Assembly (NCBI GenBank): GCA_964637955.1
Contig: CAZWXQ010000002.1
Location: 7,782-71,781 of the forward strand
Length of the DNA stretch: 64,000 bases
Direction of reading: 5' to 3'
Source: an uncultured Gammaproteobacteria bacterium
GTDB taxonomy: Bacteria > Patescibacteriota > Microgenomatia > Levybacterales > UBA12049
The notes beneath the pieces are model-generated. The model did no database searches and was not told where the DNA came from. It saw only the letters and a program-made list of their open reading frames with translations. The position numbers were made by a program, and so were the translations under genes. Positions within the stretch are counted from its first letter, which is position 1; each line of letters begins with the position of its first letter. Shown in pieces: positions 431 to 18,899 of the stretch.

Positions 431-1030
431 ATGCCAAGAAATCCAGAACAACTTCTGCCAGGCATTCCATTATTGGAGCGTGCTGATCTGTTAAAGAAAG
501 TACCATCTCCTTTCAGCCCACCTTGGCTTGAACCGACAGAAATTCCTATCCATCCTGCAGTTATGGATTCTGATTTTTTATTTACTCCTGAATTTGCAAA
601 GACGGTAATGGAGTCTTTGCCGGAAGCGATATTGGAAGATGAAAGAGTTATGGGAGAAGTGTTTGGAAAAGGACCTTTTGCAGCTTTATACAGAGATGAA
701 TCTTATAGAGAAAATATTGCAAATGTTGCAAATAAAATAAGGATTTCCGTTGAATCAAATCTTTTTTGGGTAGATGTTATTAATCATCCTAATGCAGCAA
801 ATATAAGAATAGATGCAAGAAATGGTAAGCAAGCCAGTTTATTTTCAAATCCAAATCATCCGATGCCTATGGTGAAGCAGTTGGCTTACAGAAAAAATGT
901 TGAAGAGCCATATATGTATACTTGGTTAAGAAATAATACTGCAAATGTTAGTTTGGTAGAAGCATTGGGGCTTAGAAATGTTGCAATTCAAGTAAATAAT
1001 TTGGGTCTTCAAAGAGTGGGTCAAGTTTAA
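431..1030 (+). CDS. hypothetical protein
   Basis: ORF track; no recognisable family motif; true start may be an internal Met. Confidence 0.35.
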   Translation: MPRNPEQLLPGIPLLERADLLKKVPSPFSPPWLEPTEIPIHPAVMDSDFLFTPEFAKTVMESLPEAILEDERVMGEVFGKGPFAALYRDESYRENIANVANKIRISVESNLFWVDVINHPNAANIRIDARNGKQASLFSNPNHPMPMVKQLAYRKNVEEPYMYTWLRNNTANVSLVEALGLRNVAIQVNNLGLQRVGQV

Positions 1031-1587
1031 TTTTTTTCTATTGCAAATAGAATAAAATAATTATAGTTACATAAGGTTTTGGACGTTACGTTTTCAAATT
1101 TAAAGCTTGATAGCCCCTGATCAGCTCTTTTGTATCCTATTCCTACATTTCGGTATCCTGAAGGAGCTATTAATGAAAAAGTATTGCAATTTGCTGAAGA
1201 GGAAATAGAGTCAAACATCTTCGAACAAAAATTATGTGTTGGGGCTTTTCCTGTTCGATTAAATTTCAATCCATTTACTTTATATTGATAATCAGATTGA
1301 AAGCAGTTATTTCCATTTCCGTAGGTAACATTTATCCCGTATTTTCTATCATTATTTGCACTTGAGACAGCTTGTATATCAGTGTTTAAATTAACTGTAA
1401 CTCGACCTTGAGAATTGCTTTGAGTTTGTGCTGCGAGAACAGATTCCGTATTCCCACTTTTGACATTTTTTTGATGATAGGGGGAGTGTAATGCTAGAGG
1501 TACTGCAACCATAATCGCAATTGCAGAAAAAACAACAAATAATTTTTTATTGCTGGTTGTTTTACTGTTAGCTTTCTTATTGCTCAC
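1027..1587 (-). CDS. hypothetical secreted/membrane-anchored protein
   Basis: N-terminal Lys-rich segment followed by hydrophobic helix (LFVVFSAIAIMVAVPLAL); Asn/Ser-rich mature part. Confidence 0.4.
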   Translation of the reverse strand: MSNKKANSKTTSNKKLFVVFSAIAIMVAVPLALHSPYHQKNVKSGNTESVLAAQTQSNSQGRVTVNLNTDIQAVSSANNDRKYGINVTYGNGNNCFQSDYQYKVNGLKFNRTGKAPTHNFCSKMFDSISSSANCNTFSLIAPSGYRNVGIGYKRADQGLSSFKFENVTSKTLCNYNYFILFAIEKN

Positions 1588-4357: not shown

Positions 4358-4459
4358 ATTATTCCCAGCCCCTCGTTTTATTGAGCCTCTTCTTTTATAG
4401 GAGTCAATAGCAGTGAAATAGAAGGTTGACATTTGAGGCTAAGTGAGCCACTATAAGTA

Positions 4460-5380
4460 GTGATAGTGGATAGCGAATTTTCACGAAAAAAGCTTCTGGT
4501 TTTTGGAGCACTGCTTCTTGTGGTGTTGGCTATTCCTGTAACTCTCTACACCGCATTAAATCTTAATAATAAAACAGAAACTAGATCTCAAGCTGCAGAA
4601 GTTCTTGAAGACACTGTTATTGTTGCCATAAATGGTGAACAGATTAAAAAATCAGATATCAGAAAAATTGCAGAAGAGCAGAATGACCCTTCGTCAGTTG
4701 ATCAACAAGCTTTAGCTGATGCTTTAGATACTCTCATTGAAAGAAAAATTTTAGATAAAGCTGCAAATGATTTAAACATTACACCAGATCAGGCAAGACT
4801 TGCTAAATTTGAAGATGATGGCCTATCAGAAACAGAAGCAAAGTACGAAGCTTTAAGAGAGCAAGTGATTCTAAATGCTGTTAATTCAATTGAGATAATT
4901 ACAATTGGCTTCTGGAATCCTCCTACTGTGGGTGTTGCTGCTTTAAGCGTTGATGAACAGAATGATGCTGCCACTCAGCTTTCAGCAGGAACGACTGCTC
5001 TTGACGAAATAGAATCAGGATTAAACGCGGGAGATGATCCTTTGGAAATAGCAGATGCTATTAATGCTGATAATCCTGAGCTTAGAGCCGTTCTCGCTGT
5101 TAATGGATATATAGTAGGATCTTTAAATCAGGAAGATAGAGCTTTCGCAAGCCAGCCTATTATTGAGGAGTACGGAGATACAGCATTTGATGCTCAAACG
5201 AGAGATGCCATTTTTAATACTGCAAAAAATTCTATTAAAAAAATCTCAAATACTTCGGAAAATAGAGGAGGCATGGTGGTTAAAGTTGTTGAAAAAGGAG
5301 ATATAAATGGATCAAGCTCTTATGATAGTTGGTTAACTGAGCAAAAAGCCAGCTCAGTCCAACAAGTTAATTCATTATGA
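4460..5380 (+). CDS. membrane-anchored hypothetical protein (possible SurA-N/PrsA-like chaperone-type region)
   Basis: N-terminal TM anchor LLVFGALLLVVLAIPVTLY; AINGEQIKKSDIRK segment weakly resembles SurA_N; first gene of 3-gene + strand surface operon (4-nt overlap with next gene). Confidence 0.35.
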   Translation: MIVDSEFSRKKLLVFGALLLVVLAIPVTLYTALNLNNKTETRSQAAEVLEDTVIVAINGEQIKKSDIRKIAEEQNDPSSVDQQALADALDTLIERKILDKAANDLNITPDQARLAKFEDDGLSETEAKYEALREQVILNAVNSIEIITIGFWNPPTVGVAALSVDEQNDAATQLSAGTTALDEIESGLNAGDDPLEIADAINADNPELRAVLAVNGYIVGSLNQEDRAFASQPIIEEYGDTAFDAQTRDAIFNTAKNSIKKISNTSENRGGMVVKVVEKGDINGSSSYDSWLTEQKASSVQQVNSL

Positions 5381-6132
5381 AATACATGAAAGTTTTAGTA
5401 ATTTTTGCAGCGGTTTTTATAGCAGCATTTTTAGTGGTTCAGAAGAATAAGACTATGGCGGCAGAGCAGTCATTTATCCCAAATTGTTTGGGAATTTCAG
5501 GAAAGTTTTATGCAAATAAAACCTGGAAAGGTGGCTACATTATGGTTGGTTGCGCAGGAGACGATGGTGGAGCAGTAAATCAAAATCCAAACAGATGGTG
5601 TAAGGGTCAAGTTCAAAAAGTGTATCCTGGAAAACCTTTCAGACTCACAAAATGTTCATGTTTTGGTAAAGAAGGATGTCTAAAAATCGGTAAAGAGTTG
5701 TCTTTATCAACCACCCTAAATGCTAACAGGAAATATGCAATTTCAGTTGTTAAAAGAATTGATGAGATGCCTCAATTTAAAAATAATGGTTGCAGAATTA
5801 ATAAGATAGGCCAAATGTGTGGAACAAATACTATGATAATTAAGCCTAGAATTAAGATCACTTGTGATGTGCCTACCGGTACTCCAACCAGAACCAAAAC
5901 TCCTACTCCGACTGGAGGAGTATGTCCAGTTCCAGATAAGGTTCAAAATGTAAAAGTTACATGTCCAAGCTGTTCGACTTCAAGTTCGAATTCGAATTCA
6001 ACTACTACGACAACCACATTAACAACAACAGATAATGTTTCTCCTTCTCCTGAAGTTACTCCAACAATAACTGTAGCGCCAAGTGAGGCATTAACATCGA
6101 CGCCAACGCCAACAGTGGAGCCGACAAACTAA
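5377..6132 (+). CDS. secreted Cys-rich protein with C-terminal Thr/Pro-rich linker
   Basis: Signal peptide MKVLVIFAAVFIAAFLVV; >12 Cys; C-terminal TPTRTKTPTPTGG...TTTTTTLTTT...TPTPTVEPTN low-complexity linker. Confidence 0.4.
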   Translation: MKYMKVLVIFAAVFIAAFLVVQKNKTMAAEQSFIPNCLGISGKFYANKTWKGGYIMVGCAGDDGGAVNQNPNRWCKGQVQKVYPGKPFRLTKCSCFGKEGCLKIGKELSLSTTLNANRKYAISVVKRIDEMPQFKNNGCRINKIGQMCGTNTMIIKPRIKITCDVPTGTPTRTKTPTPTGGVCPVPDKVQNVKVTCPSCSTSSSNSNSTTTTTTLTTTDNVSPSPEVTPTITVAPSEALTSTPTPTVEPTN

Positions 6133-6133
6133 T

Positions 6134-7249
6134 ATGAATATAAATAAATGGTCAACAAATAAAAAGTTATTGGCAATTTTAGGAATAGTACTTATTATTG
6201 GTGGAATTATTACTACTATTCTTATAGTTCAAAAAAGACAGGATGGAAGAGCTAAAGCTGAAAAATCTACTACGCTTTCACTTACGCCAGCAACTCAGTC
6301 AGTCCCAAGCGATGGAAATACGAGTCTTGATATAAATATTGATCCAGGTAAAAACCAGGTTAATTTAGTAAAGATAACTTTGAAATATGATAAAGATAGA
6401 TTTATCGTACTTGCTAATCAATTTACTCTTAATTCTGATTCAGGTATGACCATTCTTAACGGACCTGTTGTGTCTGAAGGAAGCTTTTCAGTTGTATTAG
6501 GAACCGGGAGTGATCCGACAAAAGTTATTCAAAGCGTCCAAAAGCTTGGAAAATTAGATTTGCATGTTAAAGCTACAGCACCGCTTGGATCTTCTGAGGT
6601 TTCCTTTGATTATGCACAGACTGAGGTTCGCTCAATTCAAGCTAATGATGCGTTTAACGAAAATGTATTATCTAGCGCTACACCTGCAACTATAACTATT
6701 GAAGCAGTCTGTCGGCCAAATATCTCTACTTGTTCTTGGGACGAGCTTGAAGGAGCTTCTTCATATCATTATGTAATTACAAATGTTACTGATAAAGTTG
6801 AATTTTCTAAAGGGGACACTACCGAAAATTCTATTGATTTTACTTCCATTCCTGGAAAAAATTATAAATGTGAAGTTACAGCAAAAAATTCTTGTGGTGG
6901 AGTTGGGGAGGCTGGAGTTGCGAATAATACTTGCGCGCTTCCGTCTCAATCGCCTACACCTACCACGCCTGGAAATACATCAACGCCAACTCCAACTCCT
7001 ACGAATGGTCCTTCTAGTACACCTACTCCTACGACACCAGGATCATCTGTAACGCCCACGCCTACAACACCTGGTGTAACCTCAACGCCCACGCCTACAT
7101 CTTCTATTATAAGCTCTCCTACGCCGACCAGTGAGTTTGGGGTTAGTCCTATTCCTTCGCTTCCACCGACTGGAAATCCAGTAGTGCTTGGTGGCGTCGT
7201 AGGGGCATTGTTTATAATTATCGGAGGAATAGCACTTTTACTTCTATAA
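6134..7249 (+). CDS. cell-surface cohesin-like domain protein with FN3-like module, PT-linker and C-terminal LPPTG sortase-type sorting signal
   Basis: N-terminal TM/signal; region VNLVKITLKYDKDRFIVL...GKLDLHVKATAPLGSSEVSFD resembles cohesin beta-sandwich motifs; CSWDELEGASSYHYVITNV FN3-like; PT repeats; ends SLPPTGNPVVLGGVVGALFIIIGGIALLLL. Confidence 0.5.
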   Translation: MNINKWSTNKKLLAILGIVLIIGGIITTILIVQKRQDGRAKAEKSTTLSLTPATQSVPSDGNTSLDINIDPGKNQVNLVKITLKYDKDRFIVLANQFTLNSDSGMTILNGPVVSEGSFSVVLGTGSDPTKVIQSVQKLGKLDLHVKATAPLGSSEVSFDYAQTEVRSIQANDAFNENVLSSATPATITIEAVCRPNISTCSWDELEGASSYHYVITNVTDKVEFSKGDTTENSIDFTSIPGKNYKCEVTAKNSCGGVGEAGVANNTCALPSQSPTPTTPGNTSTPTPTPTNGPSSTPTPTTPGSSVTPTPTTPGVTSTPTPTSSIISSPTPTSEFGVSPIPSLPPTGNPVVLGGVVGALFIIIGGIALLLL

Positions 7250-7301: not shown

Positions 7302-8849
7302 CTAGATTATATTTAGAGGAGGAACTTTTTGGTCGATTCCTAAAAATGTTTCAACGTCTTGTCTAGAAATATTTACAAGTTCTTCTTTTTTCTTATCTTC
7401 TGGACAGAATTGTTTGTAAAGAGTAGGAAGCATGACTGTAATAAAATCGTTTAAAGGAATAGATTTGGTTGCCTCGATAACTTTTTTAATATTTGCTGGA
7501 TCTTGATAAAGATACATATCAAGTGCAGTTGCTGAGACTCTTTCGCCGTTATGTTCAAGAAATGCTAAATGTGGTCTATATAATATGAAGTCATCAGTTA
7601 TGCTCGCATTTGCATCATTTGCTGATTTTTCATCTCCAACTTCCTTCATCATTTCTATGTATTTTTCCTTCATTTCAGTAAGATAAGATGTTTGACTTGG
7701 GCCTCCTCCTAAGATCAGGCCGTAATAAAAGGAAAGTACGGTAAATGTTAGAAGTAGACTTGGAATTATTTCTTTATTTAAAATCGCCTTCTCAATGTCT
7801 TTTGGTGTAAGAGTTAATTCATAATTTTTATTTTTATTAACTAATTTATTTCCTTCACGTTGTAATTGAAATCTCATTCCATCATCCTTTGAGTATCCCC
7901 AGAAAAGAAATGTTCCTGATGCTTTATCAGCACTAATTGAGCCTGTAACTCCGTTAAAATATTTTTCTATTAGATCAAGATAGGATGAATTAAATATGAA
8001 CTTATGTACAGGAGTTTCCTGGTTTAGATGATATCTCAGAAGCAAGTTTAATAGAATTTTTTCTTGAGAAAGCATAATGTAATTAGGAATTTGGCTTTCT
8101 TTGAATGAGGGGAATAGTTTTCTCCAAAGATAATAATTAACTATAGTTAATTGGTCTGAGTAATCAGCTCCAGTCATTGCATGTGGATTGCTAAAGATAG
8201 AAGTGGTTAATTTATCTAAGATTTGTTTATGCTCATCGCTTAAATTAGATTCTCGTCTAACGTTCTCAATTTTACTTCGCATCTCCTTTATTTCGCTTGC
8301 GCTATAAGGTGCGCTATACATAACAGTTTGAGGATCTTTTGATCTGCTGAAGAATGAAATATTGTTGTCAATGATTTGATCATCTTTGAAAGTATGGAAT
8401 TGAAATCCTCTTGAGAAAGATAAAACATTATCATATGAAGCATTTGTGCATGAAAGAATAATTACGTTAAAAAATCTTGGATCAACATTATTAAACATTG
8501 ACAGAGCTTGACTAAGTCCTGCATTTAAAGTTTGTGCAGTTCCGAGCGGGGCAGTGTGTTCAGCTGTAGATAGGCTATCATTTTTCTTTAATTGATTTTT
8601 TACCTCTGAGGCTACAGTGCTACCTAAAAGCCTTGAAGTTTCAGAAGTAACTACATCGATTATTTCATTTTTTCTTTCATTAAAATCTTTATGAAGATTT
8701 ACTCTATTTTTTTTCTTTACATAATCAAAGTAGGAAAGTTGCCCATAAGTTTCTTTAATTTTTTTAATTTGAGGACGGCTTAAGAAAATACTTTTTTCCA
8801 TCTCTTCGAGCCTTAAAGATGTCACTTTATTGTTGTTTGAGTTCTTCAT
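7302..8849 (-). CDS. hypothetical protein (515 aa)
   Basis: ORF track; no recognisable motif. Confidence 0.4.
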   Translation of the reverse strand: MKNSNNNKVTSLRLEEMEKSIFLSRPQIKKIKETYGQLSYFDYVKKKNRVNLHKDFNERKNEIIDVVTSETSRLLGSTVASEVKNQLKKNDSLSTAEHTAPLGTAQTLNAGLSQALSMFNNVDPRFFNVIILSCTNASYDNVLSFSRGFQFHTFKDDQIIDNNISFFSRSKDPQTVMYSAPYSASEIKEMRSKIENVRRESNLSDEHKQILDKLTTSIFSNPHAMTGADYSDQLTIVNYYLWRKLFPSFKESQIPNYIMLSQEKILLNLLLRYHLNQETPVHKFIFNSSYLDLIEKYFNGVTGSISADKASGTFLFWGYSKDDGMRFQLQREGNKLVNKNKNYELTLTPKDIEKAILNKEIIPSLLLTFTVLSFYYGLILGGGPSQTSYLTEMKEKYIEMMKEVGDEKSANDANASITDDFILYRPHLAFLEHNGERVSATALDMYLYQDPANIKKVIEATKSIPLNDFITVMLPTLYKQFCPEDKKKEELVNISRQDVETFLGIDQKVPPLNII

Positions 8850-9827: not shown

Positions 9828-12650
9828 TTAATCTCCCTGCTTTGTAGAAAGTTCTCTTAGAAATAAGTTGTAATCATCCTGATTAATTTTTCCATCATCG
9901 CTTAAATCAGCTCGAGTTTTTTTCGAAGCATCGCTGCAGTTTTTTGCCGGCAAAAGGTCGCTGTAGCAGTCAGTTATTATGCTAAAGTCTAGAGAATTTA
10001 GTTTATTGTCTAGATTTGAATCACCAATTGTTAATGAAACATTTGGAGCTTGATTTAAAGCATTTTTGGTAATAGTGGGAATTCCCGTTAGCTGTCTTTT
10101 AAGATATTTGTCGATTTTTACTTTAATCGTATAAGGGCTAGTTGGGAGAATGGAGGGAATAGTAACGTCTCCTGAAAAATCACCCGTAGAAGGATTGTAG
10201 GATACGTTTCCTTGACTAGTGCCTACAAGGCTTCCTGAAAAATCAAATAGTTCAACTGTGATTACTCTTACAGCAGTGAGAGGATTTGGATTTCCAGGAG
10301 CGTTTGGATTTGAGTTATCTCCACCTCGACCAATTCCATGAAGTTTTACACTTGGAAAATGGAGAATTGTTGTGCCTGGAATTGGGGTAGGAATATTTGT
10401 CACTGGAGCACTCGTAAGAATTGGCATAGGACTAGGAGATGGGGTTGGGGTTTTAGTCGGAGTTGGAGATTTTGACGGCGTTGGTGTTTGGGTAACTGGA
10501 TTTGCAGCTTCGATACTATAGCTAACTTGTTTTGTTTTGCTAAATGTTGAGTTAGCACTATTTTCAACAGTAATTTTGGTTAAATATGGGTTCTGATCAG
10601 CGGTAGCGTTTAATGCTGGAGAAGTTACATCTAAAACTACTGTTGTTTGTGCACCTGAAGCCAGCGTAACGCTTGTTCGTCCAAATATAGCTGTCCAGTC
10701 TTCTGGTGGGACACTATTTAAATCAAATGTAGCATCAGGACAGGTAGAGGAGTTGTTGTTTTTTATGGTGATTGAATATCTTACTTTTTCTCCCATTGAT
10801 CCACTAAGCGCAGGTTCTGCAATGATTAAAGAAGGGTCCAATTTTTCACAGGGAGGTGGGCCAATGATAACGCTAAGCGTAACAGACTCCGTATCATGTG
10901 ATAACTGTTTTATAGTGACATCGTTCCTAGTATCAGAAAATGTCATATTGTCTTTAAATGTGGTGTTTAAAAGTCCTCCTCGTCCTGAGCTGTCTGTTTT
11001 ATCTACATCAATAAGATATGTTTGTTTTGTTCTCCATTCATCAGAAATTCCTCCGCCTTCATTAGTCATAGCAGGAGGATTTAAGTCAGAAATTCTAAGA
11101 AGAGCGCCTTCATAAAGTGAAGTTGGACCACCTCCGTCGCCATTATTTTTACTTTTATAATCAAGATAATAATTCCCGCCGTCAGTTGGGCGATCTATTA
11201 TTAGTGTTTGAACTTGATTTGATCTGTTTTTGGAGCCTGAATAGAGGGTATATGTTCCGCTAGTAGTTATGGTTTTTTTATTTGTGCTTGGGAGCCAACC
11301 TAAAAGAATTTTGTTTTTTACATTTGTATGTGAATGATAGTCCCATGCGCCTCCTATGAGATCAAATCTATCGCCATATCTGTAGAGAGTACAACTTCCA
11401 AATGAAGATATTTGTTTTGAACCGCATAAAAAAGCATGTGCATGGGAGAGTCCTAAGCTATGACCAACTTCATGGGCCAAAATTCCTGAATAAAACTTAA
11501 TTGCTGATGCTCCGTCAAGGGGTCCATGGTCGAAGCTATTTAGTCCATCATAATCTCCGTTTAGGAAATGAATTGGTTGAACTATGTTATCTCCAGGAAT
11601 GCCATAGGTAATAGCATTCCAATTGCAGTAGGGACCTACTGTTTCCTGATCATCAATAGAGGGGAAGACATAAGCTCTTATATTATAATCAGCAAAAGTT
11701 TTTCCTCTGCTTGTTGCGATAGGTTTTACCAAATCATTTATGGCTTTTTTAAAGCCTTTGGCGGCCTCTGTTTCTTCATAAATATCGCAAACATCGCGTC
11801 TTGTGTATCCTGGAAGATCGATCCATCCATATACATCATTTATGTCTCCTTGTATCGTGACATTTCCCATAGTCGCATCATTTATGTAATTGGCAACAGA
11901 ATTGGGAGCGCTGAAGTAGATTGTTTCGAGCTGCTGCTTAGTGAAGTTGTCAGTTACATCTGAATCGTCATTTTTAAAATTTACCATAATAACAGCAAGT
12001 TTATTAACTCCCGATGTATTTATTCCCAGAACATCTTGACCTGGTAGAAAATTGATATTTCTTGTCTGAAGATTTTCCTTCCCGATTTTAATTGGAACTA
12101 AAACATTGTCAATTAAATATCCTTCAATTTTTGCACGTCCATCAAAATCAGGTTCAAGACCTTCTCTTATGTAAAGCTCATATGTTCCTGTGCTGTTGCC
12201 TTCAGAGTCGACTGTTTGAAAAATAAGAGTAGGGACTTTAGAGTTATTTTTATTTTTCCTTTTAGGATTATGTTCCTCAACAATCTCTTCAGAGATTACT
12301 CCATTAAGTTCCACTTTTTCTTCAATATTTTTTTGAGCATTAACAGGAAGAGTATTTTTAATATCTTTTGGAATTACTATCAACAGAAATTTTTCAGGAT
12401 CATTTTTGGCAAGAGCTTTCATTTTATCTTTTCTTTTTGAAGAAGCGATAATTTTACCCGTATTGTCCGATTTATTAGAAAGAAGATCTTTCGACAATTC
12501 GCTGACATCATCGCTTAAATCAGCTCGACTTCGTAAATCATTTACATGATCTTTTGAAAGGACAATTATTGCAATTGATGTGAGTATTAAGAGGATTGAA
12601 AAGATTCCAATAGCTGCTCTTTTCCTGGAAAAAGATGTACTACTATTCAT
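9828..12650 (-). CDS. secreted/membrane-anchored metzincin-type zinc metalloprotease with PT-linker and C-terminal dockerin-like module
   Basis: N-terminal TM anchor; HEVGHSLGLSH (HExxHxxGxxH, residues 393-403, nt 11444-11474); domain NATFDLNSVPPEDW...; PT linker TQTPTPSKSPTPTKTPTPSPSP; C-terminal DSNLDNKLNSLD-FSII and DLSDDGKINQDD-YNLFL Ca-loop/helix repeats (D/N at 1,3,5,9,12). Confidence 0.6.
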   Translation of the reverse strand: MNSSTSFSRKRAAIGIFSILLILTSIAIIVLSKDHVNDLRSRADLSDDVSELSKDLLSNKSDNTGKIIASSKRKDKMKALAKNDPEKFLLIVIPKDIKNTLPVNAQKNIEEKVELNGVISEEIVEEHNPKRKNKNNSKVPTLIFQTVDSEGNSTGTYELYIREGLEPDFDGRAKIEGYLIDNVLVPIKIGKENLQTRNINFLPGQDVLGINTSGVNKLAVIMVNFKNDDSDVTDNFTKQQLETIYFSAPNSVANYINDATMGNVTIQGDINDVYGWIDLPGYTRRDVCDIYEETEAAKGFKKAINDLVKPIATSRGKTFADYNIRAYVFPSIDDQETVGPYCNWNAITYGIPGDNIVQPIHFLNGDYDGLNSFDHGPLDGASAIKFYSGILAHEVGHSLGLSHAHAFLCGSKQISSFGSCTLYRYGDRFDLIGGAWDYHSHTNVKNKILLGWLPSTNKKTITTSGTYTLYSGSKNRSNQVQTLIIDRPTDGGNYYLDYKSKNNGDGGGPTSLYEGALLRISDLNPPAMTNEGGGISDEWRTKQTYLIDVDKTDSSGRGGLLNTTFKDNMTFSDTRNDVTIKQLSHDTESVTLSVIIGPPPCEKLDPSLIIAEPALSGSMGEKVRYSITIKNNNSSTCPDATFDLNSVPPEDWTAIFGRTSVTLASGAQTTVVLDVTSPALNATADQNPYLTKITVENSANSTFSKTKQVSYSIEAANPVTQTPTPSKSPTPTKTPTPSPSPMPILTSAPVTNIPTPIPGTTILHFPSVKLHGIGRGGDNSNPNAPGNPNPLTAVRVITVELFDFSGSLVGTSQGNVSYNPSTGDFSGDVTIPSILPTSPYTIKVKIDKYLKRQLTGIPTITKNALNQAPNVSLTIGDSNLDNKLNSLDFSIITDCYSDLLPAKNCSDASKKTRADLSDDGKINQDDYNLFLRELSTKQGD

Positions 12651-13283
12651 TTACTGCGAAATAACTTGATTTGTCGGAGAAGGAGATAACGTGTCTTCTG
12701 AAGGAAGGTTCTCAATATAGCCTGAGACCATATCTTTTAGTACTGATTTATCTGTGCCAGAAGCTTGAATGGAAGTTTTAGGTAAAAAATTAATTTGAGC
12801 AGGGGAGCTTCCTGTTTTCGTAAATGTGATAACCGCAACGGTTCCTTTTCCTTGTTTTCCTTTTTGATTTGGTTTCATACCGCTCCAAAATTTAATTCTA
12901 CTATCTGCTGGAGTAATAATTTTTTGTTTTACATCAGCATCAGCGAAAAAGTTACCAGGCTTTATATCAATTATATTTATAAGTTTTGGATCGTAGCTCA
13001 TTTCTAGTTGTGCGAATGTGACCATGTTATTATTTGTATCTATATTTACATCTACTTCATATGCGCCAGATGAAGTGCTAGGTCTAACATCTTCAGAAAA
13101 CATAAGGCTGGTTTGGGCAACATCTTTAGCGACGTTTTCGGATGCTGTAGGTTTATAAAAAGTATTTTTTGCAGTCAGACTTACTACCAAAAGAATCACG
13201 GTAACAATTACAAGGACGGCAACGAGAAGCCAAGTCTTGTTCATTTTTGCTTTCGGTTGTTGTTGGTTTGGGACATTTTCCAT
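12651..13283 (-). CDS. membrane-anchored cohesin-domain protein
   Basis: N-terminal signal-anchor WLLVAVLVIVTVILLVVSL; LEMSYDPKLINIIDIKPGNFF and GTVAVITFTKTGSSPAQINF closely match type-I cohesin motifs (cf. C. thermocellum CipA FVYSYDPNVLEIIEIKPGELI / ATIVAKVKSGAPNGLSVIKF from memory). Confidence 0.55.
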   Translation of the reverse strand: MENVPNQQQPKAKMNKTWLLVAVLVIVTVILLVVSLTAKNTFYKPTASENVAKDVAQTSLMFSEDVRPSTSSGAYEVDVNIDTNNNMVTFAQLEMSYDPKLINIIDIKPGNFFADADVKQKIITPADSRIKFWSGMKPNQKGKQGKGTVAVITFTKTGSSPAQINFLPKTSIQASGTDKSVLKDMVSGYIENLPSEDTLSPSPTNQVISQ

Positions 13284-13287
13284 ATTT

Positions 13288-16026
13288 TTACAGTGGAAGC
13301 TGTGAACCTCCTTGATTTGCTACTTCTTTTAGCCAAAGCGTAAAGTCATCTTCATCAACTATTCCATTATCGTCTAAATCTGCATACGTTTGATAGTTGG
13401 GATTTACATCACAAGCTGATCTGTCCTGAGAGTAGATAGAGCAGCTCACTAAAATATTGTAGTCGTTTAAGTCTAAATTATTGTTTGATCTATCTATTTT
13501 ATTTATATCTCCAGTTATCATATCTAAAGTTTGGGCTGTTTTATTCATTCCCCGAGTTAAGGTAACAGATCCAGGTAGTTGACCTCTGAGAACCTGAGGG
13601 CCCTCAACGTAAACATTATAAATTCCTGATTGGAAATTATCGCCAAAACTTAGTGCTCCTTCAAACTTTCCACTTGCAGGATTATAGGTGACTGTATGGT
13701 CTTGAAATACATCTGCAGGGGTATTACTTGCGGCATTATACATTCTGACAGTTAAATTTCTGTTGGCACGTTCCGGATTTTTATTTCCACCGATTGGAGT
13801 TCTGGCAGTAGTTCCAATTCCGTCAATTCCAATAATTAAATTTAGATTTGTTTGCCCTGGAATACTAGTGATTGTTGGTGGATTACTAATTACGGGTTCC
13901 TCACTAATGGTTGGATCCTGGCTGATAACTGGGTCATTACTTATAACAGGATCTTGGCTAATGGTTGGATCAATAGCCTGTACATCATAAGTTACGTTCT
14001 CAGATATAAGAGGGCCATTTGTTCTTTGAATGTTAACTGTGAAGGTGGCGGGTCCATTCTCTGCATTATTAGGAGAGCTGACTGACATGGTAGTGCTTTT
14101 TGTATTTCCAGGTGCTATGTCTAGTGAATCTTTTTCAAGAGTAGAATCCCATCCGATAACACCAATTTTACTTATGTCAAAAGTGGCGTTATCACACTGC
14201 GCAGTATCATTATTTTTAATTTCAATGGTGAAATCTTTTTTGTCTCCTGCATTTCCACTTCTGGAATTTGGCTTTACATCTAGAGTTGGTCTATTTTTAA
14301 CACAAGTTGGAGCTGGGTCAGGAGTTGGATCTGTTCCGCCACCGCCTGATCCTCCTCCAGAAGGCTTAGTAGTCTTGTAGGCGTCTGTTTGGAAGTTATT
14401 GCCTTCATTCGATTCTGAGATATTTCCTACTGAATCAACAAAAACAGAAGCAATATAATCGCCCGCATTTGGCCTTGGCATATTGGTAAAGTGACTAGAT
14501 AAAGGTATCTCTTCATTCGGAGACACTACTTGCGTTACTGTCCAGGTTTTAGTAGCTCCACCGTCCCTATTAATTACTTTAACCTGAAAATCACCTGTGA
14601 TTTGTGCATTTCCAATATTTTTAATTTTTACAATTGGGTCAGATGTTCCTGTATCAACTCCGCCTGGAAATGTGAATGCTGAAACTACGAGATCTCTTGT
14701 GGCTGCTGGTTGTGTTTCTATCTTTTTAATTCCAAAATGAACAGTTCCACTCGCTCCTAAATCAATATTGGCTCCATCAGCAGTAGGATTGTTTGTTATG
14801 TTTTCTGAAGGAATTAAGTAATTTAGCTTTGTTGAGGCATAACCAGAAGGTATTAATAATTTTACTGTAATTTTATTTGCATTCGTTTTTGTTGTAACAG
14901 AATAATTATTTCCGTTCTTTGTGCTTGCGTCACCCGCAGCCTGCACAGTGTATGGGCTAGTGAAAAGTGCTTCAGTGCCATTTTTTTTACCATCATTCGC
15001 TGTTCCTCCTCCCGCACCATTATCTATAAAGACATATCCAGTGAATGAGAGTGTTTTCGTAGAACTAATTGGTGCGCATTCATTTGAAGAGTTGCAATTT
15101 CCAGATCTACATACTTGAGATTCCGGGGCAGAACAGTCTTGAGTTGTTGCTACCTCTCTGCAGTCAGTGTAATTTGGTTTTGTGGTCAGAGTTTTAGTTT
15201 GAGTTCCTGATCCTGGGCCACATGTTCCGCCATCTGGTTTAGGTATGCTGTTTTTTGCCTTACAAGTGCCTAATTTTGCACCAGCTGTGCAGTTCGGAAT
15301 AATAGAACATTTATGAGTATCTGTATTGCAAGTTTTGTCTGTTCCACAACCTCCGCAGGCTAAGCTAGTTCCACCAACGGTGAATGTTCCACAATAATTA
15401 TTTGCATTACAAAGACTATTTTTATATGTTGTTAAGTCTGAACATTTATCGGTGGTGGGTGCGCAGTATTTAAAATTTGGATTTGATGAACATTGGCTAT
15501 TAGAGGTACATTTTATGCAGTTAGTTGAAACATTTTCGTCGCAGTAAGATCTTAGACCAAATTGTACACTTCTGTCACCTCTGGTAATGTCAAAGCTGGT
15601 AGTTGTGCCTTTTTTTGTAACTGGCGAACTGGAAGGATTATCATAGAATATGTGAGTATAATTAAGTGTTCTATTTGGAGCAGTAATTTTTACTCTATAA
15701 TAATCTTCGCCAAGTTCATATAAGTCTGGGTCATTAGGTTTTAGGGTAATTGGAATTTCGAGTATAGATCCTGAACAGCTAGTCTGCGATGTTTTAGTGA
15801 GAGTTCTTGTTCCGCTTGCATCAGTTACCTGGACAGTAAAACTGCCATTATAGCAAGAATCTCCGTCTCTGCGACCATTAATATTGTAGTCGCTGTTACC
15901 GTTATCATCTACAAGCGTGGCAACATTAAGCCTGTAATTTGCTGCATGTGCTTTTTGAGGAATAATTAGAGATGCTAAGCTAAATAATAGAGGAAATAAC
16001 AATAGAGCAATAGTAATTTTTTTCAC
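13288..16026 (-). CDS. giant secreted adhesin-like protein: Cys-rich repeats, CARDB-like domain, DPxIS tandem repeats, C-terminal dockerin-like module
   Basis: Signal peptide MKKITIALLLFPLLFSLASLIIPQKAHA; >40 Cys in EGF-like spacing; CARDB-like DLVVSAFTFPGG...IKNIGNAQITGDFQVKV...VDSVGNISESNEGNN; C-terminal DLDDNGIVDEDD-FTLWLKEV (perfect Ca-loop) preceded by degenerate repeat DINKIDRSNNNLDLNDYNILV. Confidence 0.55.
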   Translation of the reverse strand: MKKITIALLLFPLLFSLASLIIPQKAHAANYRLNVATLVDDNGNSDYNINGRRDGDSCYNGSFTVQVTDASGTRTLTKTSQTSCSGSILEIPITLKPNDPDLYELGEDYYRVKITAPNRTLNYTHIFYDNPSSSPVTKKGTTTSFDITRGDRSVQFGLRSYCDENVSTNCIKCTSNSQCSSNPNFKYCAPTTDKCSDLTTYKNSLCNANNYCGTFTVGGTSLACGGCGTDKTCNTDTHKCSIIPNCTAGAKLGTCKAKNSIPKPDGGTCGPGSGTQTKTLTTKPNYTDCREVATTQDCSAPESQVCRSGNCNSSNECAPISSTKTLSFTGYVFIDNGAGGGTANDGKKNGTEALFTSPYTVQAAGDASTKNGNNYSVTTKTNANKITVKLLIPSGYASTKLNYLIPSENITNNPTADGANIDLGASGTVHFGIKKIETQPAATRDLVVSAFTFPGGVDTGTSDPIVKIKNIGNAQITGDFQVKVINRDGGATKTWTVTQVVSPNEEIPLSSHFTNMPRPNAGDYIASVFVDSVGNISESNEGNNFQTDAYKTTKPSGGGSGGGGTDPTPDPAPTCVKNRPTLDVKPNSRSGNAGDKKDFTIEIKNNDTAQCDNATFDISKIGVIGWDSTLEKDSLDIAPGNTKSTTMSVSSPNNAENGPATFTVNIQRTNGPLISENVTYDVQAIDPTISQDPVISNDPVISQDPTISEEPVISNPPTITSIPGQTNLNLIIGIDGIGTTARTPIGGNKNPERANRNLTVRMYNAASNTPADVFQDHTVTYNPASGKFEGALSFGDNFQSGIYNVYVEGPQVLRGQLPGSVTLTRGMNKTAQTLDMITGDINKIDRSNNNLDLNDYNILVSCSIYSQDRSACDVNPNYQTYADLDDNGIVDEDDFTLWLKEVANQGGSQLPL
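13864..13971 (-). repeat. six tandem 18-bp repeats encoding DP(T/V)IS(Q/N/E) inside the adhesin gene
   Basis: Visible tandem periodicity in DNA and protein (DPTISQ DPVISN DPVISQ DPTISE EPVISN PPTITS). Confidence 0.6.
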
Positions 16027-16134: not shown

Positions 16135-16704
16135 ATGATACTTTCAGATCGAGATATAAAAAAAGCATTAAAAGAAAAGAGGATTGTGATTTCACCGCTT
16201 CCTGATTTTAAAACTCAGCTTGGTAGTTGTTCGATAGATCTTAGGCTTGGAGATACTTTTAGAGTATTTGAACATAGTAAACACTCCTACATAGATCCTT
16301 CAAAAAAAGATTTTAGTAATGAAATTACGCGTGAGATAAAACTTAAGAAAAATGATTCATTTATGATGCAGCCAGGTGATTTTGTTCTCGCAGTTACTCT
16401 AGAAAAAGTTACAATCCCAGCTGATCTTATGGGTAGACTTGAGGGTCGTTCATCTCTTGGTCGCCTTGGAATTGTGGTTCATAGTACGGCTTCTATTTTC
16501 GATCCTGGTTGGGATGGGAATCCAGTTTTGGAGCTTGGAAATTTGGGACGCATGGCAGTGTCTCTTAAAGTAGGAATGAGAATTTGTGCTATGACTTTTG
16601 AAGAATTAACGAGCCCAGCTGAAACACCTTACACAAATAAAAAATTTGCCAAATATAAATTTCAGGACAGTCCAGTTGAATCAAGAATACATGAAGAGAA
16701 ATAA
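16135..16704 (+). CDS. dcd: dCTP deaminase
   Basis: Near-collinear similarity to Dcd (MILSDRDIKKAL, IDLRLG, GRSSLGRLG, FDPGWDGNPVLE, AKYKFQ C-terminus). Confidence 0.8.
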   Translation: MILSDRDIKKALKEKRIVISPLPDFKTQLGSCSIDLRLGDTFRVFEHSKHSYIDPSKKDFSNEITREIKLKKNDSFMMQPGDFVLAVTLEKVTIPADLMGRLEGRSSLGRLGIVVHSTASIFDPGWDGNPVLELGNLGRMAVSLKVGMRICAMTFEELTSPAETPYTNKKFAKYKFQDSPVESRIHEEK

Positions 16705-16795
16705 TTTTCAATTTGAAATTTTAAATTTTTAATGAAATCCAAATAATTTAATTTTAAATTTTGAAACATTGAAAACTAAGAATTAAAATTAAATC

Positions 16796-17491
16796 ATGAA
16801 ACAGGACGTAGAGTACGAAGTAAAATTTAAACAAACCTTAAAAAGAAATCCTCATAAAGGTTTGTATGTAGCTTTCGAAGGAATTGATGGAGCAGGGAAA
16901 AGTGTTCAAGTAGAGCTTTTAGAAAAATATCTCAATAAGGTCGGTAAGAAAAGTCTTATTACATTCCAACCAAGAAGAGATGGTCCTGTAGGGAAGCTCA
17001 TTAATGATATTCTTCAGGGAAATGTAAAAGTTCCATCTGTTTCACTTCAATATCTTTTTACTGCAGACAGAATTATTGATCACCTAAATCATATAGAGCC
17101 AGCACTTAAAGAGGGAAAAGTGGTAATTTCTCACAGATGTATGTGGAGCAATTTGCCATACGGGCTTTTAGATAAGCAGCTAGTAGATTATGAATCTGAC
17201 GAAGCTAGAATTATTGATGTAGCACACGGGCTTTTTTCTCACTATAATCAATTTATAATACCTGATCTGACTTTCTATCTTAAGATTTCTGCGAAAATTG
17301 GAGTAGAAAGACTTGAAAAGAGACACGCGGGGCTTGAGATGTACGAGAAGAAAGGTAAGATGGAAAAAGTCGCAAAAGGATATGAGTGGGAAATTAATAG
17401 ATTTCCTGATGAATTTATAACGATTGATGGGGAAGAAGCGCCTGAAAATGTTTCAAGAGAAGTTATAAAACACGTTGAAAAATATTTATGA
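16796..17491 (+). CDS. thymidylate-kinase-family P-loop kinase, paralog 1
   Basis: P-loop FEGIDGAGKS, DR(I)ID motif after YLFTADR, paralogous to next gene. Confidence 0.6.
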   Translation: MKQDVEYEVKFKQTLKRNPHKGLYVAFEGIDGAGKSVQVELLEKYLNKVGKKSLITFQPRRDGPVGKLINDILQGNVKVPSVSLQYLFTADRIIDHLNHIEPALKEGKVVISHRCMWSNLPYGLLDKQLVDYESDEARIIDVAHGLFSHYNQFIIPDLTFYLKISAKIGVERLEKRHAGLEMYEKKGKMEKVAKGYEWEINRFPDEFITIDGEEAPENVSREVIKHVEKYL

Positions 17492-18162: not shown

Positions 18163-18230
18163 TAATTTAAAATTTGAAATTCTAAATTTGAAATGAATTT
18201 TAAATATTAAAAATTAAAAAATTAAGTATC

Positions 18231-18304
18231 GAATGTCGCCGCTAGAGCGGGATCCCGATTGAAAACTATCATCGGGAAAAATTAAAAATTATAAATTGAA
18301 AATT
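18231..18304 (+). repeat. double-hairpin repeat element copy 1 (CCGCTAGAGCGG + CCCGATTGAAAACTATCATCGGG + AAAATTAAAAATT...)
   Basis: Near-identical to 57936-57990 (reverse orientation) and similar to 28951-28997; hairpins show compensatory changes. Confidence 0.6.
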
Positions 18305-18331
18305 TGAAAGAGATTCTGAATCAAGTTCAGA

Positions 18332-18880: not shown

Positions 18881-18899
18881 GTGGTGCTATAATTGCCGA

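What the first reader, a model, noticed from the sequence alone, without database searches (positions are those of the whole stretch)
4460..7249. Second surface operon ending in an LPPTG-anchored cohesin-like FN3 PT-linker protein
Three co-oriented, overlapping or abutting genes encode surface proteins. The first is TM-anchored with a possible SurA-N-like region. The second is a secreted Cys-rich protein with a Thr-rich tail. The third is a 371-aa protein with a cohesin-like beta-sandwich region, an FN3-like module (CSWDELEGASSYHYVITNV), PT repeats and a C-terminal LPPTG followed by a hydrophobic tail. That layout resembles a sortase-anchored anchoring scaffoldin (ScaE-type) and would complement the dockerin-bearing proteins encoded 2.5 kb away. 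The sorting signal lacks the usual positively charged tail (it ends LLLL), which is atypical.
Basis: partly seen in the sequence, partly recalled or inferred. Interest (0 to 1): 0.6.

Follow-up and report, generated by a model that had tools for sequence, protein, structure and literature searches.

The report
Anchored cohesin surface protein in Levybacteria
Three coupled genes of an ultra-small (CPR/Levybacteria-type) bacterium encode a chaperone-like membrane protein, an orphan cysteine-rich secreted protein and a cell-surface stalk protein whose tip has a true cohesin fold, probably a docking post for the dockerin-tagged protease and adhesin genes next door, held by an unusual LPPTG anchor that lacks the usual charged tail.

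Summary
ORFs 4460-5380, 5377-6132 and 6134-7249 are co-oriented and translationally coupled, and the trio is syntenic in 14 of 14 related loci.

The 371-aa protein gets no Pfam hit itself. However, 18 of 45 homologues hit Cohesin and 10 of 45 hit fn3. Its AlphaFold model matches solved cohesins only at the top of the list (6kgf, E 1.6e-11, TM 0.77-0.80).

The C-terminal LPPTG[N/S]P plus Gly-rich helix is the most conserved part of the protein, so it is not a PT-linker accident. 95 of 97 relatives lack a K/R tail. LPXTG HMMs do not hit. No sortase is encoded in the 64-kb window or in about 230 kb of related loci. In related MAGs the same PxPTLPPTGNP motif occurs with a canonical basic tail on another surface protein, and published work reports sortase as near-ubiquitous in Microgenomates.

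The conserved convergent neighbours are two dockerin-bearing proteins (an M6-like protease and a CARDB protein) and a second, 210-aa cohesin protein.

Best reading: a single-cohesin anchoring protein of a non-cellulosomal, lineage-specific cohesin-dockerin display system. Sortase cleavage is plausible but unproven. Rating: new variant of a known kind, moderate interest.

The parts
4427..4458 (+). Promoter-like TTGACA ... TATAAG directly upstream of the first start codon, in the 100-bp gap after purE
   Evidence: Read from the sequence. The spacer is about 20 nt, so the consensus scan did not list it. Weak evidence.
4460..5380 (+). Gene 1: 306-aa membrane-anchored protein with no Cys and a SurA/PrsA-like N-terminal chaperone domain. 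TM is about residues 12-33 and the SurA_N-like part about residues 40-131.
   Evidence: SurA_N_3 matches in 18 of 25 family members (best E 5.5e-7). The window protein itself is below the cut-off.
5377..6132 (+). Gene 2: 251-aa secreted orphan Cys-rich protein. The start overlaps the stop of gene 1 (ATGA).
   Evidence: Only 32 homologues were found, all on the same kinds of contig as gene 3 homologues. No Pfam family matches any member.
5479..5871 (+). Protein 2 beta-rich domain (residues 35-165) with 9 conserved Cys
   Evidence: AF2 model m87abb6e861ba has pLDDT mostly above 90 here. Foldseek PDB matches are only weak, to Ig-like domains of Gram-positive pilins and adhesins (E about 1e-3, TM below 0.3).
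5923..5973 (+). Protein 2 mini-module CPVPDKVQNVKVTCPSC (residues 183-199; family consensus ICPxPxKVTNVKVTCPNC), resembling an FN3 A strand
   Evidence: Cys183, Cys196 and Cys199 are at least 90% conserved. hhalign places it on P0118 residues 293-330, directly before the FN3 module there (probability 93.6%).
6134..7249 (+). Gene 3: 371-aa surface protein = signal, cohesin, FN3-like module, PT stalk, LPPTG-type C-terminal anchor
6134..6259 (+). N-terminal export signal (residues 1-42). A long helix ends in R-x-K/R-A, a probable signal-peptidase I site after Ala42.
   Evidence: Ala42 is invariant (45 of 45), Arg39 is present in 42 of 45, and position -3 is small in 40 of 45. The AF2 helix spans residues 8-40. 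Cleavage itself is inferred.
6263..6703 (+). Cohesin-fold module (residues 44-190)
   Evidence: Foldseek PDB: the top 15 hits are all cohesins (6kgf_C E 1.6e-11, TMt 0.77; 6kge_A TMt 0.80). PF00963 matches 18 of 45 homologues. The family profile matches PDB cohesin 6kg8 at E 0.0016. pLDDT is above 90.
6704..6934 (+). FN3-like module (residues 191-267) with five invariant Cys (193, 200, 246, 254, 267) and six predicted strands
   Evidence: PF00041 matches 10 of 45 homologues.
6935..7153 (+). Pro/Thr-rich stalk (residues 268-340), predicted disordered
   Evidence: pLDDT is below 50. Length and sequence are hypervariable among homologues.
7154..7246 (+). C-terminal sorting/anchor signal: P-S-LPPTG-NP (LPPTG at 7160-7174), then a Gly-rich hydrophobic helix VVLGGVVGALFIIIGGIALLLL with no basic tail
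   Evidence: This is the most conserved segment of the protein (mean top-residue fraction 0.77 against 0.54 for the cohesin). 95 of 97 relatives have no K/R in the last 8 aa. No LPXTG HMM matches.
9828..12650 (-). Conserved convergent neighbour: 940-aa exported M6/zincin-like metalloprotease ending in an X-module plus type I dockerin (dockerin about 9855-10025). Candidate ligand.
   Evidence: Dockerin_1 scores 25.0 bits against a cut-off of 22.9. Weak M6/M66 and HExxH-family matches. Synteny.
12651..13283 (-). Conserved neighbour: 210-aa N-terminally anchored second cohesin protein
   Evidence: PF00963 scores 31.1 bits against a cut-off of 24.1. Only a 47-residue stretch is weakly similar to protein 3 (30% identity).
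13288..16026 (-). Conserved neighbour: 912-aa exported CARDB/NEW3 protein ending in the same X-module plus dockerin-like repeat pair
   Evidence: CARDB E 1.3e-7. The C-terminal 170 aa are homologous to those of the 940-aa protein (E 6e-16). The Dockerin_1 HMM itself did not match at E<=0.01.

Best explanation
The operon belongs to a conserved surface island of a Levybacteria-type (Microgenomates, CPR/Patescibacteria) bacterium.

Protein 3:
- It is exported by Sec and probably cleaved after the invariant Ala42 (inferred).
- It is held at the cell by its C-terminal LPPTG-type signal.
- A PT-rich stalk of about 73 residues and a disulfide-stabilised FN3-like spacer lift one type I-like cohesin module away from the envelope.
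- That cohesin acts as a receptor for the Ca-binding dockerin modules on the metalloprotease (940 aa) and the CARDB protein (912 aa) encoded convergently next door (inferred).
- The result is a one-cohesin 'anchoring scaffoldin' that displays hydrolytic or adhesive proteins, not cellulases.

Anchoring most likely starts as a C-terminal membrane helix. The lineage's housekeeping sortase then probably cleaves at LPPT|G and links the protein to the wall (inferred, about even odds).

Protein 1 is a membrane-tethered SurA/PrsA-like chaperone that helps fold the exported partners (inferred). Protein 2 is a secreted, disulfide-rich beta-sandwich protein of unknown activity that travels with protein 3.
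For: Shown here:
- Cohesin fold. The AF2 model has domain pLDDT above 90. The top 15 Foldseek PDB hits are all cohesins, several solved in complex with dockerins (E 1.6e-11, TMt 0.77-0.80). 18 of 45 homologues hit PF00963. The family profile finds PDB cohesins (E 0.0016).
- FN3. 10 of 45 homologues hit PF00041.
- Anchor motif under selection. P341 and G347 are invariant, LPPTG is exact in most sequences, and the C-terminal 31 aa are the most conserved part of the protein.
- Motif position. It sits 29-31 residues from the C-terminus across about 100 relatives with different middle domains (FN3, PKD, LamG), so it behaves as a modular signal.
- Canonical version in the same lineage. In two related MAGs the identical extended motif PIPTLPPTGNP sits on an unrelated fn3/Big_13 protein downstream of PilO, followed by a TM segment and a basic tail (TRVKNAI). 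That is a textbook sortase signal.
- Ligands nearby. Dockerin_1 is above its cut-off in the 940-aa protein, and the 912-aa protein carries a homologous X-dockerin module.
- Synteny. The block p1-p2-p3, facing the dockerin proteins and the 210-aa cohesin, is conserved in 14 of 14 loci.
- Sibling proteins carry the same cohesin but end in a dockerin instead of the anchor, which indicates a lineage-wide cohesin-dockerin network.
- Protein 1: SurA_N_3 in 18 of 25 homologues.

From the literature: a sortase family is reported as near-ubiquitous in Microgenomates (PMC6744442), and a closed Microgenomates genome encodes one (PMC7143001).
Against: - The window protein itself gets no Pfam or NCBIfam hit.
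- No cohesin-dockerin binding was tested or modelled.
- No sortase motif or Pfam Sortase hit was found in the 64-kb window or in L001-L019. The rest of the genome could not be read.
- The basic tail that retains classical sortase substrates is absent in 95 of 97 relatives.
- The TM helix has four near-invariant Gly. That is unexpected for a segment that is simply cut off and discarded.
- 5 of the 45 closest homologues have Pro in place of the scissile Thr, and Thr-less variants (IVPPG, LPAPG, IAQPG, LEAPG) occur among the 120 relatives.
- The LPXTG HMMs fail.
Confidence: 0.55

Rival explanations
1. Same cohesin display protein, but the C-terminus is a permanent tail-less transmembrane anchor. 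LPPTG[N/S]P is then a conserved hinge or helix cap at the membrane surface, and the Gly-zipper helix packs against itself or a partner membrane protein. No sortase cleavage occurs.
For: - No K/R tail in 95 of 97 relatives.
- G354, G357, G364 and G365 are at least 93% conserved, and the helix is more conserved than the folded domains.
- 5 of the 45 closest homologues have Pro in place of Thr, and Thr-less motif variants occur among the relatives.
- TIGR01167 and PF00746 do not match even at E<=10.
- No sortase near any of 19 loci.
- CPR Pam-pilus chaperones and the terminator PamR are also proposed to be held by plain C-terminal TM helices (bioRxiv 10.64898/2026.03.03.709456).
Against: - The identical PxPTLPPTGNP motif occurs with a canonical charged tail on another protein of the same lineage. 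This argues that one enzyme reads the motif.
- The variant pattern L/I/M-P/A-x-T-G mirrors known sortase motif variation (LPXTG, LAXTG).
- Sortase is reported as near-universal in Microgenomates.
Confidence: 0.3
2. The cohesin-fold module is not a dockerin receptor. It would be a structural or adhesive beta-sandwich, for example for host-cell or polymer attachment by an episymbiont. The nearby dockerin proteins would bind the 210-aa cohesin protein or something else.
For: - A second bona fide cohesin (PF00963 above its cut-off) sits directly between the two dockerin genes and is the more obvious partner.
- Protein 3's cohesin shares only 30% identity over 47 residues with it.
- Cohesin-like modules are widespread outside cellulosomes (my own knowledge: Peer et al. 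2009, FEMS Microbiol Lett).
- Identity to solved cohesins is 21% or less.
Against: - The fold matches are specifically to dockerin-binding cohesins, several of them solved in complex.
- The whole block is co-conserved in 14 of 14 loci.
- Sibling proteins pair this very cohesin type with a dockerin on one chain.
Confidence: 0.2
3. Proteins 2 and 3 form a complex. Protein 2's C-terminal mini-module (CPxPxKVxNVKVTCPxC) would supply the missing A strand of protein 3's six-stranded FN3-like domain, possibly locked by an intermolecular disulfide. This would tether the otherwise anchor-less protein 2 to the cell.
For: - In P0118 the two pieces are contiguous in one chain. Protein 2's mini-module aligns to residues 293-330 (probability 93.6%). 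Protein 3's FN3 aligns to residues 322-408 (probability 98.1%).
- Protein 3's FN3 has six predicted strands and five (an odd number of) invariant Cys.
- Protein 2 homologues were found only on contigs matching those of FN3-type protein 3 homologues, never PKD-type.
- P0147, a protein 2 homologue, lacks the mini-module and instead carries the LAPTG anchor itself.
Against: - Part of the hhalign score comes from PT-linker composition.
- The mini-module is low confidence in the AF2 model (pLDDT 56-65).
- The same truncated FN3 type occurs in P0115 and P0116, which belong to other architectures, so it may be stable alone.
- No complex prediction was possible.
- Several protein 2 orthologues continue past the mini-module into further domains.
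Confidence: 0.15

Closest known systems
ScaE, the sortase-anchored single-cohesin anchoring scaffoldin of Ruminococcus flavefaciens
   Same: The order of parts is the same: signal peptide, one cohesin, Pro/Thr-rich linker, LPXTG-type C-terminal signal. The ScaE cohesin (2zf9) is among the fold hits (E 8.8e-7).
   Different: - ScaE has a type III cohesin (TMt only 0.58 here) and a canonical charged tail, and it anchors a cellulosome.
- Here the cohesin is closest to type I.
- An FN3-like Cys module is inserted.
- The tail is missing.
- The candidate ligands are a protease and a CARDB protein in a CPR bacterium.
Type I cohesins of cellulosomal scaffoldins and single-cohesin anchoring proteins (C. 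acetobutylicum CaCohA2, 6kgf/6kge; P. cellulosolvens ScaB, 4ums; A. cellulolyticus ScaC, 4uyp; C. thermocellum OlpA/OlpC, 3ul4/4dh2)
   Same: These are the best structural matches (TMt 0.70-0.80, E 1e-11 to 1e-6). The family profile also finds them by sequence.
   Different: Identity is 21% or less. OlpA and OlpC are anchored by SLH domains, not by an LPXTG-type signal. The partner dockerins here carry a Cys-Cys loop between the two Ca-binding repeats and a conserved preceding X-module.
Non-cellulosomal cohesin-dockerin pairs (for example the C. perfringens glycoside hydrolase complexes; 2vo8 cohesin)
   Same: Cohesin and dockerin are used to assemble non-cellulolytic extracellular proteins.
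   Different: Those are enzyme-to-enzyme links in a Firmicute. Here one partner carries a cell anchor, and the system is specific to a CPR lineage.
LPXTG cell-wall sorting signal (TIGR01167 / PF00746) processed by sortase
   Same: A pentapeptide LPPTG is followed by a hydrophobic segment of about 24 residues at the extreme C-terminus, after a Pro/Thr-rich wall-spanning region.
   Different: There is no basic tail. The helix is Gly-rich and highly conserved. The HMMs do not match. Some relatives replace Thr by Pro.
PrsA / SurA extracytoplasmic foldases
   Same: Protein 1 has an N-terminal membrane anchor followed by a SurA_N-like chaperone domain.
   Different: No parvulin PPIase domain is detectable: only 1 of 25 homologues hits Rotamase_2, at E 0.029. 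No PDB sequence relative was found.
Pam pili of CPR bacteria (bioRxiv 10.64898/2026.03.03.709456)
   Same: It is a CPR-specific surface system of Ig-like or FnIII-like proteins, with components proposed to be held by C-terminal TM helices and stabilised by disulfides.
   Different: No homology or shared gene context was seen. The Pam operon has donor-strand pilins and PapD-like chaperones next to ATP synthase genes, and none of these is here.

Membership tests
Cohesin domain (Pfam PF00963) | Match to the family HMM above the gathering score | tested here: inconclusive
   The window protein has no hit at E<=1. 18 of 45 full-length homologues match, best E 4.2e-10. The family profile against PDB cohesins gives E 0.0016-0.019.
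Cohesin domain (Pfam PF00963) | Nine-stranded jelly-roll beta-sandwich superimposable on solved cohesins | tested here: met
   AF2 pLDDT is above 90 over residues 44-190. The top 15 Foldseek hits are all cohesins, with TMt 0.77-0.80 and E down to 1.6e-11.
Cohesin domain (Pfam PF00963) | Ca-dependent binding of a dockerin | not testable with these tools
   No complex prediction or binding assay is available. Candidate dockerins are encoded at 9855-10025 and about 13288-13500.
Anchoring scaffoldin, ScaE type | Cohesin plus a C-terminal sortase signal, with a cognate sortase in the genome | tested here: inconclusive
   The architecture is met. A sortase was not found in the 64-kb window or in 19 related loci. 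The literature reports sortase as near-ubiquitous in Microgenomates.
LPXTG sorting signal (TIGR01167 / PF00746) | LPXTG pentapeptide about 30 residues from the C-terminus | tested here: met
   LPPTG lies at residues 343-347 of 371. It is conserved at 29-31 residues from the end in relatives.
LPXTG sorting signal (TIGR01167 / PF00746) | Hydrophobic segment after the motif | tested here: met
   Residues 348-371 contain no charged residue, and AF2 predicts a helix at 349-370.
LPXTG sorting signal (TIGR01167 / PF00746) | Positively charged C-terminal tail | tested here: not met
   The protein ends ...IALLLL. 95 of 97 relatives have no K/R in the last 8 residues. A canonical tail (TRVKNAI) exists on a different LPPTGNP protein of related MAGs.
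LPXTG sorting signal (TIGR01167 / PF00746) | Match to the family HMM | tested here: not met
   There is no hit at E<=10 for the C-terminal 50 aa or at E<=1 for the whole protein. The canonical-tailed comparator reaches 10.4 bits against a cut-off of 15.9.
Fibronectin type III (PF00041) | HMM match and a seven-stranded beta-sandwich with the conserved Trp and Tyr | tested here: inconclusive
   10 of 45 homologues match, best E 6.2e-5, and the window protein has no hit. W202 and Y244 are invariant. The AF2 model shows six strands, with no clear A strand.
SurA_N / PrsA-like chaperone (PF13624) | HMM match to the SurA N-terminal domain | tested here: inconclusive
   The window protein scores 22.3 bits against a cut-off of 27.2. 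18 of 25 homologues match, best E 5.5e-7. No PPIase domain is detected.
Type I dockerin (PF00404) in the neighbouring 940-aa protein | HMM above the gathering score and two Ca-binding D-x-[DN]-x-D...D repeats | tested here: met
   25.0 bits against a cut-off of 22.9. The repeats DSNLDNKLNSLD and DLSDDGKINQDD are read from the translation.

The most novel reading that the evidence does not exclude
Levybacteria and related Microgenomates would run a self-contained, non-cellulosomal cohesin-dockerin 'surface Lego'.
- The cell-proximal posts carry a distinct, tail-less, Gly-zipper variant of the LPXTG signal. Its fate would differ from that of the canonical tailed LPPTGNP signal in the same cells (for example permanent membrane anchoring, or a dedicated processing route).
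- The orphan Cys-rich protein 2 would be tethered to the post by donating the missing FN3 A strand to protein 3, as a split domain across adjacent genes.

This would give ultra-small episymbionts a modular way to arm their surface with proteases and adhesins.
Probability: 0.15. Interest if true: 0.7.

Novelty: new variant of a known kind. Interest (0 to 1): 0.45.

Why it matters
CPR/Patescibacteria are thought to live attached to other microbes, yet little is known about how they build their surface.

This locus gives a concrete, testable model. A single-cohesin post, conserved with its neighbouring dockerin-tagged protease and CARDB protein, suggests that cohesin-dockerin assembly is used for surface display of hydrolases or adhesins far outside cellulosomes.

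The tail-less but strongly conserved LPPTG signal coexists with a canonical tailed version in the same lineage. That makes it a natural experiment on what the charged tail and the TM helix of sortase signals are for.

None of the individual parts is new in kind, and database annotators already label some relatives as 'cohesin domain-containing'. The value therefore lies in the combination and in the lineage, not in a new principle.

Tried and rejected
1. Direct Pfam and NCBIfam scans of the three proteins gave nothing significant for proteins 2 and 3.
2. Sortase hunt:
   - TLxTC and relaxed [TS][LIVM]x[TS]C motifs were searched in all six frames of the window and of L001-L019. This gave no sortase candidate: nothing in the window, and only a few short spurious-frame matches in the loci.
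   - Pfam scans of about 56 window ORFs found no Sortase, rhomboid or exo/archaeosortase.
   - The 314-kb NCBI contig that holds the window could not be fetched. Only short Logan contigs came back.
3. The genome-contig scan with the single protein found nothing. The 17-sequence alignment worked.
4. A profile of the C-terminal signal alone was searched against 1.84 billion representatives. It was too short to reach beyond the family: 14 hits, one of them a false positive (P0180). It did reveal P0147.
5. PDB sequence searches for proteins 1 and 2 found no relatives.
8. Relation to the CPR Pam pilus operon was considered and rejected. There are no shared families or context.
9. A sortase-assembled pilus was considered and rejected. 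Only one of the three proteins has the motif, and no pilus sortase is adjacent.
10. Literature searches found no description of a CPR cohesin-dockerin system or of tail-less LPXTG signals in CPR.

Full report
**Observation**

The window has about 36% G+C. The three ORFs are at the coordinates given: 4460-5380 (306 aa), 5377-6132 (251 aa) and 6134-7249 (371 aa), all on the + strand. Gene 1's TGA overlaps gene 2's ATG (ATGA). Gene 2's TAA is followed one base later by gene 3's ATG, with a GGAG about 12 nt upstream. This is the layout of a translationally coupled operon. A TTGACA...TATAAG element lies directly before the first start codon, in the 100-bp gap after purE. The promoter/terminator scan found no more sites than shuffled sequence would give.

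Upstream are purC, purK and purE. Downstream, a 515-aa ORF without any family match converges on the operon.

**Origin**

Homologues of all three proteins come from metagenomes and MAGs labelled Candidatus Levybacteria/Levyibacteriota, Patescibacteria or Saccharimonadales. The window is therefore from a Microgenomates-type CPR bacterium. The exact proteins sit on a 314-kb NCBI contig, which I could not retrieve.

**Protein 3: domains**

- The protein itself hits nothing in Pfam or NCBIfam at E<=1.
- Among 45 full-length homologues (35-74% identity), 18 hit Pfam Cohesin (best E 4.2e-10) and 10 hit fn3.
- A profile of the family finds solved cohesins by sequence (6kg8, E 0.0016).
- The AlphaFold2 model built on that alignment has pLDDT above 90 through residues 44-266.
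- In a Foldseek search of the PDB, the top 15 hits are all cohesin modules. The best are C. acetobutylicum CohA2 (6kgf/6kge: E 1.6e-11, target TM 0.77-0.80, 21% identity). Next come ScaB/ScaC, OlpA/OlpC and CipA cohesins. The ScaE type III cohesin scores lower (TM 0.58).
- The cohesin call is therefore confirmed by structure. The closest type is type I rather than ScaE-like.
- Residues 191-267 form a six-stranded FN3-like sandwich with invariant Trp202 and Tyr244 and five invariant cysteines.
- Residues 268-340 are a hypervariable, disordered Pro/Thr stalk.

**Protein 3: the two ends**

N-terminus:
- The hydrophobic helix is followed by a conserved motif that ends in an invariant Ala42.
- Arg39 is present in 42 of 45 sequences, and a small residue sits at -3 in 40 of 45.
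- This fits a signal-peptidase I site placed unusually far from the h-region. Cleavage is inferred.

C-terminus:
- LPPTG is not a by-product of the PT linker. P341 and G347 are invariant, L/I/M343 is universal and T346 is present in 40 of 45 sequences.
- The last 31 residues are the most conserved stretch of the whole protein (mean top-residue fraction 0.77, against 0.54 for the cohesin).
- Across the 120 relatives found, at least 97 carry an [LIM][PAE]x[TP]G-type motif 29-31 residues from the end, followed by a Gly-rich hydrophobic helix. 95 of those 97 have no Lys or Arg in the last eight residues.
- These relatives have different middle domains (FN3, PKD, LamG), so the signal is modular.
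- The curated LPXTG models do not recognise it even at E<=10.

**Sortase question**

- No TLxTC-type ORF exists in the window or in about 230 kb of flanks from 19 related loci.
- Pfam scans of about 56 window ORFs found no sortase, rhomboid or exosortase-type enzyme.
- First indirect argument for sortase: in two related MAGs, an unrelated fn3/Big_13 surface protein encoded after pilO ends in ...PIPTLPPTGNPSVIIASIVGFIATISGIIALFFTRVKNAI. This is the same extended motif followed by a TM segment and a canonical basic tail, and it gives a near-full-length though sub-threshold TIGR01167 alignment.
- Second indirect argument: Meheust et al. report a sortase family in more than half of CPR genomes and as near-ubiquitous in Microgenomates (PMC6744442). 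A closed Microgenomates genome also has one (PMC7143001).
- Against cleavage: the absent tail, the strongly conserved Gly pattern of the helix (G354, G357, G364, G365), and relatives with Pro instead of the scissile Thr.
- I rate wall linkage by sortase as about even. Cell anchoring by this C-terminus, in one form or the other, is likely.

**Context**

- tblastn of the window's proteins against 14 independent FN3-type loci shows the same arrangement in every one. It runs p1, p2, p3 on one strand, then on the other strand one or two large proteins ending in an X-module plus dockerin, a cohesin protein of about 210 aa, and then dcd.
- In the window these neighbours are:
  - a 940-aa M6/zincin-like metalloprotease with Dockerin_1 above its cut-off;
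  - a 210-aa N-terminally anchored cohesin (PF00963, 31 bits);
  - a 912-aa CARDB/NEW3 protein whose last 170 residues are homologous to those of the protease (E 6e-16).
- Sibling proteins of protein 3 keep the same signal and cohesin but end in X-dockerin instead of the anchor.
- The lineage therefore has a cohesin-dockerin network in which protein 3 is the member equipped for cell attachment.
- Which cohesin binds which dockerin is unknown. The two cohesins of the window share only a 47-residue weak match.

**Proteins 1 and 2**

Protein 1:
- Its family is small (26 proteins) and restricted to the same lineage.
- 18 of 25 members match SurA_N_3, and none has a convincing parvulin domain.
- It has no Cys and no PDB relative.
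- A membrane-tethered SurA/PrsA-like holdase for the exported partners is the most economical reading. This is inferred.

Protein 2:
- Its family has 32 members. Many of them come from contigs with the same lengths as those carrying FN3-type protein 3 homologues. None matches a Pfam family.
- The protein consists of a signal peptide, a confidently modelled beta domain with nine conserved Cys, a PT linker, a conserved mini-module (ICPxPxKVTNVKVTCPNC) and an S/T tail.
- The beta domain has only weak Ig-like matches to Gram-positive pilins and adhesins (E about 1e-3, TM below 0.3).

**A lead: possible complex of proteins 2 and 3**

- Profile comparison puts protein 2's mini-module on residues 293-330 of P0118 (probability 93.6%).
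- It puts protein 3's FN3 on residues 322-408 of the same protein (probability 98.1%).
- The two adjacent gene products therefore map to contiguous parts of one domain.
- One protein 2 homologue (P0147) lacks the mini-module and instead ends in the LAPTG/Gly-rich anchor.
- Together with the six-stranded FN3 and its odd number of Cys, this suggests that protein 2 may dock on protein 3 by strand complementation.
- The evidence is thin. The segment is short, part of the score is linker composition, and the same truncated FN3 occurs in other architectures. I give it about 0.15.

**Comparison with known systems**

- In function and architecture the closest analogue is a single-cohesin anchoring scaffoldin: ScaE for the LPXTG-type end, OlpA/OlpC for the type I-like cohesin.
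- Membership of the cohesin fold is met. Membership of the LPXTG signal family fails on two defining features, the charged tail and the HMM match.
- The system is not cellulosomal. No glycoside hydrolase is in the block, and the dockerin carriers are a protease and a CARDB protein.
- I found no paper in the searchable library that describes cohesin-dockerin display or tail-less LPXTG-like signals in CPR.
- Database annotators already name some relatives 'cohesin domain-containing' or 'fibronectin type III domain-containing'.
- The recently described CPR Pam pilus is a different system.

**Verdict**

Sortase anchoring is unproven, and the cohesin type and biological context are not as proposed. 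I classify the finding as a new variant of a known kind: an anchored cohesin display protein with a conserved tail-less LPPTG signal, within a conserved Levybacteria surface island. Interest is moderate (0.45). The most novel reading still open, a distinct sorting class plus a split FN3 linking proteins 2 and 3, has a probability of about 0.15.

Noticed in passing
window 6134-6259; also 12540-12650 (-) and 4460-4610: Exported proteins of this locus share a motif 8-10 residues after the signal's hydrophobic core: Q-x-[ED]-x-R-[SGTA]-[RK]-A. Ala42 is invariant in 45 of 45 protein 3 homologues. The 940-aa protein has LRSRADLS and protein 1 has TETRSQAAE. It looks like a lineage-typical signal-peptidase site set unusually far from the h-region.
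   Followed up: partly
P0063, P0075, P0091, P0068, P0079, P0086, P0100, P0103: Sibling proteins carry the same N-terminal signal and cohesin as protein 3, but end in an X-module plus type I dockerin instead of the anchor. Cohesin and dockerin are thus on one chain, which could allow chains or self-assembly.
   Followed up: no
L016 4977-6071; L017 3123-4454: In related MAGs an fn3/Big_13 surface protein, encoded right after pilO and a 105-aa gene, ends in PIPTLPPTGNP + TM + TRVKNAI. This is a canonical tailed sortase signal with the same extended motif as the tail-less cohesin protein, and it is possibly linked to type IV pilus genes.
   Followed up: partly
P0147 (268 aa): A homologue of the orphan Cys-rich protein 2 lacks the C-terminal mini-module. 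It instead carries the tail-less SLAPTGNS...GGIIGGILVILGGIILLL anchor.
   Followed up: partly
window 5923-5973 and 6704-6934; P0118 residues 293-408: Protein 2's mini-module and protein 3's FN3-like module align to contiguous segments of a single domain in P0118. P0118 is a Cys-rich-repeat protein that ends in a dockerin.
   Followed up: partly
window 9828-10400 (-) and 13288-13860 (-): Both large neighbours end in a conserved module of about 110 aa (LHGIG..GDN.NP...Y.VKVK...LR) before the dockerin. The dockerin has a Cys...Cys loop between its two Ca-binding repeats. The same X-dockerin cassette recurs across Microgenomates proteins.
   Followed up: partly
window 7302-8849 (-): A 515-aa ORF converges on the operon. 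It has no Pfam or NCBIfam match and no signal peptide. tblastn found it only in the closest relative (88% identity in L001/L002) and in none of the other syntenic loci.
   Followed up: no
window 16135-19280: The nucleotide-salvage block has duplicated genes: two dCTP deaminase-like genes (16135-16704, 18332-18880) and two tandem, overlapping thymidylate kinase paralogues (16796-17491, 17488-18162). thyA, NUDIX, HIT and DHFR follow.
   Followed up: no
window 4427-4466: TTGACA, then about 20 nt, then TATAAG ends one base before the GTG at 4460. A second in-frame GTG at 4466 matches the 304-aa database version. The operon mRNA may be leaderless or nearly so.
   Followed up: no
L006-L009, L011-L014: The record titles of these MAG contigs say 'uncultured Gammaproteobacteria bacterium'. 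Yet they carry the Levybacteria-type p1-p2-p3/dockerin island at 38-47% identity. The labels look like placeholders or misassignments.
   Followed up: no
window 1027-1587 (-): A 186-aa exported protein (N-terminal TM, several Cys) has no family match. It lies between the tRNA-Ile region and purC.
   Followed up: no
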